Shown in pieces: positions 37,658 through 40,763 of a DNA stretch of 64,000 bases; within the stretch, counting starts at the first letter, position 1; every line of letters begins with the position of its first letter. Both the position numbers and the translations under genes were made by a program. Below the pieces are notes generated by a model. It saw only the letters and a list, made by a program, of their open reading frames with translations. It was not told the DNA's origin and searched no databases. Source of the stretch: Escherichia coli (GTDB lineage: Bacteria > Pseudomonadota > Gammaproteobacteria > Enterobacterales > Enterobacteriaceae); assembly GCF_050320075.1 (NCBI RefSeq), contig NZ_CP190018.1, one strand, 5' to 3'.

Positions 37658-37747
37658 ATTACTTCAGGTATTTCAGAACAGCATCAAGCAGTTGCAGTGC
37701 TGCAACAATGAGTTTGAGGATAAGAATGGCGATATCCACCAGGCTCA
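37658..37747 (-). CDS. tisB: Type I toxin TisB (SOS-induced membrane-depolarising peptide)
   Basis: Manual translation of the minus strand gives the 29-aa peptide MSLVDIAILILKLIVAALQLLDAVLKYLK, one residue different from K-12 TisB as recalled; below the ORF track size cutoff. Confidence 0.9.
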
Positions 37748-37982
37748 TACGCGTCTCCTGTGGTTCAGGAGCACTGCCAGCTGACGTACCTTTCCGCTGC
37801 CTGTTGCCAGCTGTTGTGCACGCGGTATCTCAAGGAGAAACGTTGTGCTCGTTGACATAACACAGTGTGCTCACGCGGGGTTAAGGCGCTGACGGCACCA
37901 CCCGTTTCAGCCAGGACTTAGTGCGCCGGGTAACGATGCGGCCCCCGCATAACACATTGCGTACAGTGATATTATAGAAGTT

Positions 37983-38002
37983 TACTGTATAAATAAACAG
38001 TA
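37983..38002. promoter_or_regulatory. LexA box (SOS operator) of tisAB/istR-2
   Basis: TACTGTATAAATAAACAGTA matches the LexA consensus TACTGTATATATATACAGTA (CTG-N10-CAG) and lies between divergent tisB and the expected istR position. Confidence 0.85.
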
Positions 38003-38044
38003 ATATTTGGACAAAACGCAAACTGTGATCGATACTCAACTATG

Positions 38045-38185
38045 CACTAAATACGTCAAAATTCGTGCCGAAATTGCGCGTTTTGCGCGGAACACGTATA
38101 CTTTCTGTGTTGACATAATACAGTGTGCTTTGCGGTTACCAGCCGCGGGCGGCTGACGAAACCTCGCTCCGGCGGGGTTTTTTGT
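38045..38185 (+). ncRNA. istR: IstR sRNA locus (IstR-1/IstR-2 antitoxin RNAs); boundaries approximate
   Basis: Divergent from tisB across the LexA box. A 21-nt plus-strand segment at 38110-38130 is a near-perfect direct repeat of 37849-37869 inside the tisAB 5' UTR, i.e. the sRNA would be complementary to the mRNA. A T-tract near 38176-38187 gives a likely 3' end. Confidence 0.5.
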
Positions 38186-38312
38186 TACCTGCAGTACAGT
38201 ACAAAACGTGATCAACCCCTCAATTTTCCCTTGCTGAAAAATTTTCCATTGTCTCCCCTGTAAAGCTGTGCTTGTATAAATATTGTTAAACACAAAACCA
38301 ACAAGGTCCCCA

Positions 38313-38411
38313 ATGACTACTTCCATGCTCAACGCAAAACTACTACCAACTGCGCCATCCGCCGCAGTGGTCGTCGTGCGTGTGGTGGTGGTCGTCGGCA
38401 ATGCGCCGTAG
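38313..38411 (+). CDS. ivbL: ilvB operon leader peptide IvbL
   Basis: 32-aa peptide MTTSMLNAKLLPTAPSAAVVVVRVVVVVGNAP with a Val/Leu-rich regulatory stretch. Confidence 0.9.
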   Translation: MTTSMLNAKLLPTAPSAAVVVVRVVVVVGNAP

Positions 38412-38434
38412 GGACTGGAACAACACACGATTCC

Positions 38435-38468
38435 AAAACCCCGCCGGCGCAAACCGGGCGGGGTTTTT
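38435..38468 (+). terminator. ilvBN attenuator terminator
   Basis: GC-rich hairpin ccccgccgg ... ccgggcgggg followed by TTTTT, just after ivbL and before ilvB. Confidence 0.8.
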
Positions 38469-38516
38469 CGTTTAATCACCTCCCGGAAAGTCGGCCCAGA
38501 AGAAAAGGACTGGAGC

Positions 38517-40205
38517 ATGGCAAGTTCGGGCACAACATCGACGCATAAGCGCTTTACCGGCGCAGAATTTATCGTTCATTTCCTGGAACAGCAGGGCATT
38601 AAGATTGTGACGGGCATTCCGGGCGGTTCTATCCTCCCTGTTTACGACGCCTTAAGCCAAAGCACGCAAATCCGCCATATTCTGGCTCGCCATGAACAGG
38701 GCGCGGGGTTTATCGCTCAGGGAATGGCGCGCACCGACGGTAAACCGGCGGTCTGTATGGCCTGTAGCGGACCGGGGGCGACTAACCTGGTGACCGCCAT
38801 TGCCGATGCGCGGCTGGACTCCATCCCGCTGATTTGCATCACTGGTCAGGTACCCGCCTCAATGATCGGCACCGACGCCTTCCAGGAAGTGGACACCTAC
38901 GGCATCTCTATCCCCATCACCAAACACAACTATCTGGTCAGACATATCGAAGAACTCCCGCAGGTCATGAGCGATGCCTTCCGTATTGCGCAATCAGGCC
39001 GCCCTGGCCCGGTGTGGATAGACATTCCTAAGGATGTGCAAACGGCCGTTTTTGAGATTGAAGCACAGCCCGCGGTGGCAGAAAAAGCCGTCGCGCCCGC
39101 CTTTAGCGAAGAAAGCATTCATGACGCAGCGGCAATGATTAATGCTGCCAAACGCCCGGTGCTTTATCTGGGCGGTGGTGTGATCAATGCGCCTGCGCGA
39201 GTGCGTGAACTGGCGGAGAAAGCGCAGCTGCCTACCACCATGACTTTAATGGCGCTGGGTATGCTGCCAAAAGCGCATCCGCTGTCGCTGGGTATGCTGG
39301 GGATGCACGGTGTGCGCAGCACCAACTATATCTTGCAGGAGGCGGATCTGCTGATTGTTCTCGGCGCGCGTTTTGATGACCGGGCGATTGGCAAAACCGA
39401 GCAGTTCTGTCCGAATGCGAAAATTATTCATGTCGATATCGATCGCGCAGAGCTGGGTAAAATCAAGCAGCCGCACGTAGCGATTCAGGCGGATGTTGAT
39501 GACGTGCTGGCGCAGCTGATCCCGCAGGTGGAAGCGCAACCGCGTGCAGAGTGGCACCAGTTGGTAGCGGATTTGCAGCGCGAATTCCCGTGTCCAATCC
39601 CGAAAGCGTGCGATCCATTAAGCCATTACGGCCTGATCAACGCCGTTGCCGCCTGTGTCGATGACAATGCGATTATCACCACCGATGTGGGTCAGCATCA
39701 GATGTGGACGGCGCAGGCTTATCCGCTCAATCGCCCACGCCAGTGGCTGACCTCCGGCGGGCTGGGCACGATGGGCTTTGGTCTGCCTGCGGCGATTGGC
39801 GCGGCGCTGGCGAACCCGGATCGCAAAGTGTTGTGCTTCTCCGGCGACGGCAGCCTGATGATGAATATTCAGGAGATGGCGACCGCCAGTGAAAATCAGC
39901 TGGATGTCAAAATCATTCTGATGAACAACGAAGCGCTGGGGCTGGTACATCAGCAACAGAGTCTGTTCTACAAGCAGGGCGTTTTTGCCGCTACCTATCC
40001 GGGAAAAATCAACTTTATGCAGATTGCCGCCGGATTCGGCCTCGAAACCTGTGATTTGAATAACGAAGCCGATCCGCAGGCTGCATTGCAGGAAATCATC
40101 AATCGCCCTGGTCCGGCGCTGATCCATGTGCGCATTGATGCCGAAGAAAAAGTGTACCCGATGGTGCCGCCAGGTGCGGCGAATACTGAAATGGTGGGGG
40201 AATAA
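38517..40205 (+). CDS. ilvB: Acetolactate synthase I large subunit
   Basis: 562-aa ThDP-dependent enzyme (ThDP motif GDGSLMMN). Confidence 0.97.
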   Translation: MASSGTTSTHKRFTGAEFIVHFLEQQGIKIVTGIPGGSILPVYDALSQSTQIRHILARHEQGAGFIAQGMARTDGKPAVCMACSGPGATNLVTAIADARLDSIPLICITGQVPASMIGTDAFQEVDTYGISIPITKHNYLVRHIEELPQVMSDAFRIAQSGRPGPVWIDIPKDVQTAVFEIEAQPAVAEKAVAPAFSEESIHDAAAMINAAKRPVLYLGGGVINAPARVRELAEKAQLPTTMTLMALGMLPKAHPLSLGMLGMHGVRSTNYILQEADLLIVLGARFDDRAIGKTEQFCPNAKIIHVDIDRAELGKIKQPHVAIQADVDDVLAQLIPQVEAQPRAEWHQLVADLQREFPCPIPKACDPLSHYGLINAVAACVDDNAIITTDVGQHQMWTAQAYPLNRPRQWLTSGGLGTMGFGLPAAIGAALANPDRKVLCFSGDGSLMMNIQEMATASENQLDVKIILMNNEALGLVHQQQSLFYKQGVFAATYPGKINFMQIAAGFGLETCDLNNEADPQAALQEIINRPGPALIHVRIDAEEKVYPMVPPGAANTEMVGE

Positions 40206-40208
40206 GCC

Positions 40209-40499
40209 ATGCAAAACACAACTCATGACAACGTGATTCTCGAACTCACCGTTCGCAACCATCCGGGCGTAATGACCCACGTTTGTGGCCTTTTTGCCCG
40301 TCGCGCTTTTAACGTCGAAGGCATTCTCTGCCTGCCGATTCAGGACAGCGACAAAAGCCATATCTGGCTACTGGTCAATGACGACCAGCGTCTGGAGCAG
40401 ATGATAAGCCAAATCGATAAGCTGGAAGATGTGGTGAAAGTGCAGCGTAATCAGTCCGATCCGACAATGTTTAACAAGATTGCGGTGTTTTTTCAGTAA
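40209..40499 (+). CDS. ilvN: Acetolactate synthase I small (regulatory) subunit
   Basis: 96-aa ACT-domain protein directly after ilvB. Confidence 0.95.
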
Positions 40500-40532
40500 G
40501 GAGCGACATTAAACCGCTCGGGGGGTTTGCTG

Positions 40533-40550
40533 ATGAGCGATTTTTGATAG
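40533..40550 (+). repeat. 18-bp motif atgagcgatttttgatag, copy 1 (upstream of island ORF 1)
   Basis: Identical 18-mer recurs at 42129-42146 upstream of ORF 2. Confidence 0.6.
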
Positions 40551-40572
40551 ATCCGTTCAGATATATAGGGTG

Positions 40573-40605
40573 AAATTGTGCCAGAGACCATCTCAGGCAC
40601 AATTT
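40573..40605. promoter_or_regulatory. Palindrome aaattgtgcc-N13-ggcacaattt upstream of island ORF 1 (candidate operator)
   Basis: Perfect 10-bp inverted repeat with a 13-bp spacer, about 160 bp upstream of the ORF 1 start. Confidence 0.3.
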
Positions 40606-40763
40606 ATTAGCCCAGGACGTTAATTTAAGTCGCTGCACCGATAACCAGGGGGTTGACAGTTAGGGCTAAAAATTTCCAGCGATGGTGTTAAATTCTGATT
40701 GCTGTCTATACCAGTGGTCATGACCAGCATTCTATTAATTAATGGTTCATCGTGAGGTATATT

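What the first reader, a model, noticed from the sequence alone, without database searches (positions are those of the whole stretch)
38313..38468. ivbL leader peptide and attenuator upstream of ilvBN
The 32-aa leader is Val/Leu-rich and is followed by a GC-rich hairpin plus T-tract, the classical attenuation control of ilvBN. It is a small feature easily missed by automated annotation.
Basis: partly seen in the sequence, partly recalled or inferred. Interest (0 to 1): 0.15.

Follow-up and report, generated by a model that had tools for sequence, protein, structure and literature searches.

The report
ivbL leader and ilvBN attenuator
This is the well-known E. coli ivbL leader peptide and transcription attenuator that switches the valine/leucine biosynthesis genes ilvBN on when charged Val/Leu tRNAs run short. 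It is base-for-base identical to the K-12 copy, so it is real but ordinary.

Summary
An ATG ORF at 38313..38411 (+) encodes MTTSMLNAKLLPTAPSAAVVVVRVVVVVGNAP, which has 9 Val and 3 Leu in 32 residues. A GC-rich hairpin (38435-38447 / 38454-38467) and a U-tract (38464-38468) follow it, 49 nt upstream of the ilvB ATG (38517).

From about 38198 to 38476 the window is identical to E. coli K-12 MG1655 ivbL (b3672) and its attenuator. The same segment occurs in 5418 of 5426 complete E. coli genomes, and every one of the 35 listed rows carries a PGAP "ivbL" annotation.

A mutually exclusive antiterminator (38402-08:38445-51 plus 38411-13:38440-42, -21.1 kcal/mol) matches the terminator in stability (-21.0). 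It overlaps the UAG stop codon, so a ribosome that finishes the leader blocks it.

In 99 distinct leaders from more than 20 enterobacterial genera, both structures stay 97-99% paired but are almost invariant. One stem pair covaries perfectly (U-A 37 / C-G 62, at two synonymous sites). Synonymous third positions of leader codons 19-32 are 98% identical to E. coli, against 55% in ilvB.

Published reporter work on the identical K-12 sequence shows the Val/Leu response. Verdict: already known and low interest. Only the claim that automated annotation easily misses it is not borne out.

The parts
38275..38280 (+). TATAAA, a -10-like hexamer of the presumed ivbL-ilvBN promoter. It is inferred only, and the transcription start was not mapped here.
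   Evidence: Read from the sequence. The consensus scan found no sigma-70 promoter here, so the -35 is poor. The region is identical to K-12. A start near 38286-38288 would give a terminated leader of about 180-185 nt, which matches my recollection of the published leader length (untested here).
38290..38306 (+). 5' UTR: a CA-rich stretch ACACAAAACCAACAA (38290-38304) and the Shine-Dalgarno AAGG (38303-38306), 6 nt before the ATG.
   Evidence: Sequence. PMC11347164 reports ivbL as a GcvB target with a predicted site in the 5' UTR near the AUG. Assigning that site to this CA-rich stretch is my inference. 38305-38310 pairs with 38411-38416 in the MFE fold; that helix is only 83% paired across relatives.
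38313..38411 (+). ivbL leader ORF, 32 codons plus UAG. Regulatory codons: Leu6 CUC (38328-30), Leu10-Leu11 CUA CUA (38340-45), Val19-22 (38367-78), Arg23 (38379-81), Val24-28 (38382-96). Stop codon at 38409-11.
   Evidence: Identical to K-12 b3672. PGAP annotates it as ivbL in RefSeq genomes. CTACTA and the Val run are near-invariant at the nucleotide level in 99 relatives.
38313..38395 (+). Large 5' helix ('protector'): the start of the ORF (38313-38326) pairs with the second Val run (38382-38395), topped by the hairpin 38350-54:38363-67.
   Evidence: MFE and pair probabilities of 0.8-1.0. Cells paired across 99 relatives: helix 2 86.6%, apical helix 82%. Pair 38351:38366 covaries perfectly, C-G 62 / U-A 37 with none unpaired, at the third positions of Thr13 and Ala18.
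38402..38451 (+). Predicted antiterminator (AT-A): 38402-08:38445-51 and 38411-13:38440-42, enclosing the hairpin 38416-20:38431-35. Its 5' arm spans codons 30-32 and the UAG stop.
   Evidence: It is the MFE of transcripts ending at 38448-38460, and of ribosome-masked transcripts until the mask reaches about 38404. Energy -21.1 kcal/mol against -21.0 for the terminator. It is more stable than shuffled upstream sequence (-21.9 against -13.4 +/- 2.9; 5 of 500 shuffles as low). The outer helices are 98-99% paired in 99 relatives but invariant; the inner hairpin shows compensatory A-U/U-A changes in 14 sequences.
38435..38473 (+). Intrinsic terminator (attenuator): stem 38435-38447 / 38454-38467, loop CGCAAA, bulged G at 38456, U-tract 38464-38468, then CGUUU.
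   Evidence: 97.5% of cells paired and 9 of 13 pairs invariant in 99 relatives. RNAalifold recovers it independently. Term-seq lists a 3' end 'ivbL_t' in E. coli (PMC9023263).
38517..40499 (+). The regulated structural genes: ilvB (38517..40205) and ilvN (40209..40499), acetohydroxy-acid synthase I.
   Evidence: ORFs; RefSeq annotation of identical DNA.

Best explanation
This is the ivbL-ilvBN ribosome-mediated transcription attenuator, identical to the K-12 element. Transcription starts a few dozen nt upstream of the leader ATG, and a ribosome translates the 32-codon leader while RNA polymerase moves on. When charged Val- and Leu-tRNAs are plentiful, the ribosome reaches the UAG at 38409-11. 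There it covers the 5' arm of the antiterminator (38402-38413), the terminator hairpin (38435-38467 plus U-tract) forms, and transcription stops before ilvB. When Val- or Leu-tRNA charging is low, the ribosome stalls at CUA-CUA (38340-45) or in the two Val runs (38367-96). Segment 38402-13 then stays free and pairs with 38440-51 as soon as that emerges, the terminator's 5' arm is sequestered, and polymerase reads through into ilvBN. Shown here: the sequence identity, the ORF, the terminator, the existence and stability of the mutually exclusive antiterminator, and the conservation and covariation. Taken from the literature: the response to Val/Leu and the effect of stop-codon occupancy. Inferred: which stall positions feed which alternative helix, and the kinetics.
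For: Identity to K-12 ivbL and its attenuator. Present in 5418 of 5426 complete E. coli genomes, and annotated as ivbL in all 35 listed rows. Synteny emrD-tisB-istR-ivbL-ilvB-ilvN as in K-12. The terminator and antiterminator share 38440-38451 and are isoenergetic at -21.0 and -21.1 kcal/mol. Masking by a ribosome at the stop codon abolishes the antiterminator, giving -0.4 kcal/mol for the truncated transcript, whereas stalls at Val19-Val26 leave it intact at -21.9. 99 distinct leaders from more than 20 genera keep the terminator 97.5% paired and the antiterminator outer helices 98-99% paired. Pair 38351:38366 covaries perfectly at two synonymous sites. Four-fold-degenerate third positions of leader codons 19-32 are 98% identical to E. 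coli, against 55% for ilvB in the same 91 genomes. Literature on the identical sequence: a GFP reporter is repressed by Val plus Leu, and mutants lacking Leu codons respond to Val only (PMC11187965). A Delta-RF3 strain with more stop-codon occupancy shows more attenuation at ivbL (PMC5373646). The leader controls ilvBN by attenuation (PMC11347164, citing Hauser et al. 1985).
Against: Nothing contradicts the explanation. Limits: the terminator and the antiterminator outer helices are nearly invariant, so they are supported by conservation rather than covariation. Some pairing of the C-rich terminator arm with shuffled G-rich upstream sequence is common (mean pairing probability 0.66 against 0.69 for the real sequence), so only the stability is above chance. 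The equilibrium MFE of the full-length leader is the terminator state in almost every ribosome-mask condition, so antitermination must be kinetic. Without any ribosome, the truncated transcript also prefers the antiterminator (-60.1 against -49.4), so thermodynamics alone does not reproduce the 'no translation gives termination' expectation of the classical model. The transcription start and promoter were not verified here.
Confidence: 0.95

Rival explanations
1. The canonical attenuator is present, but the element carries further regulatory layers that explain its extreme nucleotide-level conservation. Candidates are a second antiterminator that uses the second Val run (38378-38392 pairing with 38438-38450), RNA polymerase pause signals, GcvB/RNase E control of the leader RNA, or a trans-acting role for the terminated leader RNA of about 185 nt.
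For: With the ribosome mask ending at 38377 or 38380 (stall at Val19), the truncated transcript folds best by pairing the second Val run with the terminator's 5' arm, at -26.5 and -24.8 kcal/mol. Synonymous sites of codons 19-32 are 98% conserved. ivbL is a reported GcvB target, with RNase E sites between ivbL and ilvB (PMC11347164). A CA-rich 5' UTR lies at 38290-38304.
Against: The isolated AT-B helix is weak, at -14.0 kcal/mol. No covariation is available to test it. The CA-rich 5' UTR is not conserved across genera. Nothing here tests a trans-acting role. Codon-specific tRNA sensitivity together with the known helices may be enough to explain the conservation.
Confidence: 0.12
2. IvbL is simply a small protein gene with its own ordinary terminator. 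ilvBN would then be controlled only at its promoter, with no structural switch.
For: The full-length MFE is always the terminator state. In a plasmid assay the terminator is weak or leaky (PMC9023263).
Against: RNA-level conservation of synonymous sites and of both arms of the antiterminator. The variable N-terminal half of the peptide contrasts with the frozen Val/Leu codons. Published Val/Leu-dependent reporter output and codon-swap mutants. The effect of stop-codon occupancy.
Confidence: 0.02
3. The short ORF and the hairpin occur together by chance.
For: None beyond the small size of the ORF.
Against: A unique Val run in about 128,000 ten-codon windows. Fold z-score of -3.45. Conserved in 5418 E. 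coli genomes and more than 20 genera.
Confidence: 0.005

Closest known systems
E. coli K-12 ivbL (b3672) leader peptide and ilvBN attenuator
   Same: The peptide is identical. The DNA is identical from the promoter region through the terminator U-tract. The neighbouring genes are the same: emrD, tisB, istR, ilvB, ilvN.
   Different: Nothing within the element. The first difference from MG1655 is one base (T against G) about 10 nt downstream of the U-tract, near 38478. The downstream neighbourhood differs: a 3.4 kb low-GC island and an IS1 lie between ilvN and uhpA.
trpL / trp operon attenuator (the paradigm of ribosome-mediated attenuation)
   Same: A leader ORF with clustered regulatory codons, mutually exclusive antiterminator and terminator hairpins, and a ribosome at the stop codon that favours termination.
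   Different: The ivbL element is multivalent, with 9 Val and 3 Leu codons instead of 2 Trp. The antiterminator's 5' arm overlaps the stop codon itself. In silico the untranslated transcript does not clearly sequester that arm.
ilvL / ilvGMEDA and leuL attenuators of E. coli
   Same: They belong to the same regulatory class and the same branched-chain amino-acid pathway (established knowledge).
   Different: They have different leader peptides and codon sets; ilvL also senses Ile. No sequence similarity was tested here.
Corynebacterium ilvBNC leader / ilvB-II motif
   Same: A Val/Leu/Ile-rich uORF with a three-hairpin attenuator upstream of ilvB (titles and abstracts of PMC10272879 and PMC11857589).
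   Different: The sequence and lineage are unrelated. It is analogous rather than homologous, as far as was tested.

Membership tests
E. coli ivbL-ilvBN attenuator (specific locus) | Leader peptide sequence MTTSMLNAKLLPTAPSAAVVVVRVVVVVGNAP | tested here: met
   The translations of the window and of K-12 b3672 are identical.
E. coli ivbL-ilvBN attenuator (specific locus) | Located immediately upstream of ilvB-ilvN in the conserved chromosomal context | tested here: met
   The ilvB ATG is at 38517 and ilvN follows. emrD, tisB and istR lie upstream, as in K-12.
Ribosome-mediated (leader-peptide) transcription attenuators | A short translatable leader ORF with SD and start codon, enriched in codons for the pathway's end products | tested here: met
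   AAGG SD 6 nt before the ATG; 12 of 32 codons are Val or Leu; the Val run is unique in the window.
Ribosome-mediated (leader-peptide) transcription attenuators | An intrinsic terminator (GC-rich hairpin plus U-tract) between the leader ORF and the first structural gene | tested here: met
   38435-38467 plus U5, -21.0 kcal/mol, 97.5% paired in 99 relatives.
Ribosome-mediated (leader-peptide) transcription attenuators | An alternative antiterminator helix that is mutually exclusive with the terminator | tested here: met
   38402-13 pairs with 38440-51, -21.1 kcal/mol, 98-99% paired in relatives, more stable than 495 of 500 shuffles. This is a prediction and was not probed experimentally.
Ribosome-mediated (leader-peptide) transcription attenuators | Ribosome position decides which helix forms: a stall at regulatory codons frees the antiterminator, and completion of the ORF blocks it | tested here: met
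   In silico masking: stalls at Val19-26 keep AT-A, while a ribosome at the stop codon abolishes it. Supported experimentally for K-12 by PMC5373646.
Ribosome-mediated (leader-peptide) transcription attenuators | Read-through responds to the supply of the cognate amino acids in vivo | not testable with these tools
   Shown in the literature for the identical MG1655 sequence (PMC11187965).
Ribosome-mediated (leader-peptide) transcription attenuators | A 5' 'protector' pairing sequesters the antiterminator when the leader is not translated (superattenuation) | tested here: inconclusive
   As it emerges, segment 38402-13 is first held by the hairpin 38396-99:38405-08 and the helix 38308-10:38411-13. 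AT-A then becomes 10.7 kcal/mol more favourable once 38445-51 is made. The outcome depends on kinetics.
Rfam leader / cis-regulatory families | A match to a curated covariance model | tested here: not met
   No + strand Rfam hit at E <= 1 within 38283-38474. The only hits there are sub-threshold minus-strand matches to the hairpin (STnc310, P6). The element is documented as a gene (ivbL) rather than as an Rfam family.

The most novel reading that the evidence does not exclude
The leader's 3' half is almost completely frozen at the nucleotide level: 98% identity at synonymous sites across more than 20 genera, against 55% in ilvB. This could reflect constraints beyond the textbook two-hairpin switch. 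One possibility is two alternative antiterminators that read the two Val runs separately. Another is a second role for the abundant terminated leader RNA as a GcvB/Hfq-interacting regulatory RNA.
Probability: 0.1. Interest if true: 0.35.

Novelty: already known. Interest (0 to 1): 0.08.

Why it matters
For this window it matters little. It confirms that the ilvBN operon carries its normal, intact Val/Leu-sensing attenuator, which standard annotation already captures. The comparative numbers gathered here are a tidy illustration of RNA-level selection on a coding leader, but they do not change what is known. Those numbers are the perfect U-A/C-G covariation at two synonymous sites and the 98% against 55% identity at synonymous sites.

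Tried and rejected
1. The simple terminator scan did not report the attenuator hairpin. The reason is the bulged G at 38456, not absence of the hairpin.
2. The Rfam search gave no leader family. The minus-strand sub-threshold hits (STnc310 at 22.7 bits, P6 at 22.3 bits) are generic hairpin matches and were rejected.
3. A CRP-site search (TGTGAN6TCACA with up to 3 mismatches) finds CGTGATCAACCCCTCA at 38207-38222. The window holds 219 such matches against 216.5 expected by chance, so this says nothing, and CRP control remains a recollection from the literature.
4. Covariation tests of the terminator and the outer antiterminator helices are uninformative because both arms are invariant.
5. The SD-sequestering helix 38305-10:38411-16 has a central pair that is unpaired in 59 of 99 relatives, so it was not relied on.
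6. The original 1982-83 papers could not be retrieved by DOI.
7. The Term-seq supplementary coordinates are not held.
8. Equilibrium folding with ribosome masks on the full-length leader mostly returns the terminator. It was replaced by truncated-transcript snapshots as the more relevant test.

Full report
**Observation.** The + strand carries an ATG-initiated ORF at 38313..38411 that translates to MTTSMLNAKLLPTAPSAAVVVVRVVVVVGNAP followed by TAG.
- It has 9 Val and 3 Leu codons out of 32.
- VVVVRVVVVV is the only ten-codon window with 9 or more Val among about 128,000 such windows in all six frames of the 64 kb sequence.
- An AAGG Shine-Dalgarno lies 6 nt upstream of the ATG.
- Twenty-three nt after the stop codon begins a GC-rich hairpin, AAAACCCCGCCGG-CGCAAA-CCGGGCGGGGUUUU (38435-38447 / 38454-38467, one bulged G). 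It is followed by a U-tract whose first run ends exactly at the finding's end coordinate, 38468.
- The consensus terminator scan missed the hairpin because of the bulge.
- The 188-nt leader folds at -71.6 kcal/mol, z = -3.45, and no shuffle out of 200 folds as well.

**Identity.** The stretch 38186-38520 aligns to E. coli K-12 MG1655 with no difference anywhere in the promoter-proximal region, leader ORF or attenuator. The first difference is a single base about 10 nt past the U-tract.
- The peptide equals K-12 b3672, 'ilvBN operon leader peptide'.
- The gene order emrD - ysdE - tisB - istR - ivbL - ilvB - ilvN is that of K-12.
- The leader region occurs once in 5418 of 5426 complete E. coli genomes, at 95% identity or more by the tool's identity bands.
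- All 35 listed rows, 20 of them sampled evenly down the ranking, are annotated by PGAP as 'ivbL: ilvB operon leader peptide IvbL'.

**The alternative fold.** It can.
- In the full-length leader the MFE contains three elements. The first is a long 5' helix in which the start of the ORF (38313-26) pairs with the second Val run (38382-95). The second is a small hairpin, 38396-99:38405-08. The third is the terminator.
- A different structure is optimal when the transcript is cut just before the terminator's 3' arm is available, or when ribosome footprints are imposed. In it, 38402-08 pairs with 38445-51 and 38411-13 with 38440-42, around a small hairpin at 38416-35.
- This antiterminator uses the terminator's 5' arm, so the two are mutually exclusive. 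They are isoenergetic at -21.1 and -21.0 kcal/mol.
- Its 5' arm spans codons 30-32 and the UAG. A ribosome stalled with its A site at Val19-Val26 leaves it intact (-21.9 kcal/mol). A ribosome at the stop codon abolishes it (-0.4 kcal/mol).
- That is exactly the logic of ribosome-mediated attenuation. It agrees with the published finding that increased ribosome occupancy at the ivbL UAG stop increases attenuation (PMC5373646).

**Caveats on the folding.**
- Some pairing of the C-rich arm with G-rich upstream sequence also arises in shuffles. Only the stability of the real helix stands out, with 5 of 500 shuffles as stable.
- At equilibrium the complete leader prefers the terminator in nearly every mask condition, so read-through must be a kinetic outcome.
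- Without any ribosome the truncated transcript also prefers the antiterminator by 10.7 kcal/mol. Thermodynamics alone cannot say whether an untranslated leader terminates.
- With a stall at Val19, a second option appears in which the second Val run pairs with the terminator arm. I could not test it.

**Comparative evidence.** A degenerate DNA pattern for VVVVRVVVVVGN, with third positions free, found 109 loci in one-genome-per-species bacterial contigs. They include Escherichia, Salmonella, Citrobacter, Enterobacter, Klebsiella, Raoultella, Kluyvera, Kosakonia, Cedecea, Buttiauxella, Pluralibacter and Serratia, among others.
- 99 of the 104 loci checked had an ilvB-like ORF downstream. All encode a leader with a variable N-terminal half and a fixed LL.TA...AAVVVVRVVVVVGNAP tail.
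- In the alignment of 99 distinct sequences, the terminator is paired in 97.5% of cells. The outer helices of the antiterminator are paired in 98-99%.
- Nearly all of those pairs are invariant, so this is conservation rather than covariation.
- Real covariation exists elsewhere. Pair 38351:38366 is C-G in 62 sequences and U-A in 37, and never unpaired. Both positions are synonymous third positions, of Thr13 (ACU/ACC) and Ala18 (GCA/GCG). The small hairpin inside the antiterminator loop shows A-U to U-A swaps in 14 sequences.
- RNAalifold independently recovers that stem and the terminator.
- Four-fold-degenerate third positions of leader codons 19-32 are 98% identical to E. coli across 91 genomes. 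Those of ilvB in the same genomes are 55% identical.
- The pattern fixed only first and second codon positions, so this is not a selection artefact. It shows purifying selection on the RNA sequence or on codon identity, rather than on the peptide.

**Literature.**
- The MG1655 ivbL region placed before GFP is repressed by Val plus Leu, with defined response ranges. Replacing the Leu codons gives a Val-only sensor, and other amino acids with five or fewer codons in the leader have no effect (PMC11187965).
- ivbL controls ilvBN by attenuation. It is also a GcvB target with RNase E sites between ivbL and ilvB (PMC11347164).
- Term-seq lists a 3' end 'ivbL_t' with weak termination strength (PMC9023263).
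- The primary papers are Friden et al. 1982 and Hauser & Hatfield 1983. I cite them from memory only, because they could not be retrieved.

**Comparison and verdict.**
- The element is the K-12 ivbL-ilvBN attenuator itself, not merely something like it.
- Every defining feature that could be tested was met. The exception is the classical 'protector prevents antiterminator without translation' step, which is inconclusive in silico.
- No Rfam family covers it, but it is a named, annotated gene.
- Novelty: already known. Interest: low.
- The most novel reading left open is that the extreme nucleotide conservation hides additional functions. These could be dual antiterminators, pause signals, or a GcvB-related role for the terminated leader RNA. 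I put this at about 10%.

Noticed in passing
window 40500-43900: A low-GC (33-40%) island of about 3.4 kb sits between ilvN and the uhp genes. It is absent from K-12, where the ilvN-uhpA gap is 75 bp. It holds two + strand ORFs, 40752..42047 (431 aa) and 42302..43792 (496 aa). They are 25% identical paralogues (E = 4e-23), have no Pfam family, and are 'hypothetical protein' in RefSeq. The island DNA is found in 1110 of 5426 complete E. coli genomes, at 80% coverage or more in 643, and partially in O157:H7.
   Followed up: partly
window 43841-44344 (-): An IS1 transposase ORF (InsB-like, PF03400, E = 2e-78) lies directly after the island. The best-matching strain, CFSAN061763, has no IS1 there: uhpA follows its island directly.
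   Followed up: partly
window 37659-38183: A complete tisB/istR type I toxin-antitoxin locus lies just upstream of ivbL. It comprises tisB at 37659..37748 (-), a LexA-box-like palindrome TACTGTATAAATAAACAGTA at 37984-38003, and istR (RF01400, 145 bits, E = 1e-31) at 38054-38183 (+). The istR terminator ends about 100 nt before the ivbL promoter region.
   Followed up: partly
window 38367-38411 and alignment A2: Synonymous third positions of leader codons 19-32 are 98% identical to E. coli across 91 enterobacterial species, against 55% for ilvB four-fold sites. The tandem rare Leu codons CUA-CUA (38340-45) are also near-invariant.
   Followed up: yes
L079:164-369 (Serratia rubidaea NCTC12971): This leader has a 1-nt insertion (GCGCCGGTA) just before the stop codon. 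The insertion removes the stop and extends the ORF through the terminator into a peptide of about 75 aa. It could be a sequencing error or a natural frameshift; I did not examine it.
   Followed up: no
window 38305-38310 with 38411-38416: In the MFE fold, part of the leader's own SD region pairs with the GGGACU just after the stop codon. This fits the suggestion in PMC11347164 that GcvB binding opens a structure that occludes the RBS. The helix is only 83% paired across relatives, and its central pair is unpaired in 59 of 99.
   Followed up: partly
E. coli genome collection: 8 of 5426 complete E. coli genomes give no megablast match to the ivbL leader region. I did not check whether ilvBN is deleted in them.
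   Followed up: no
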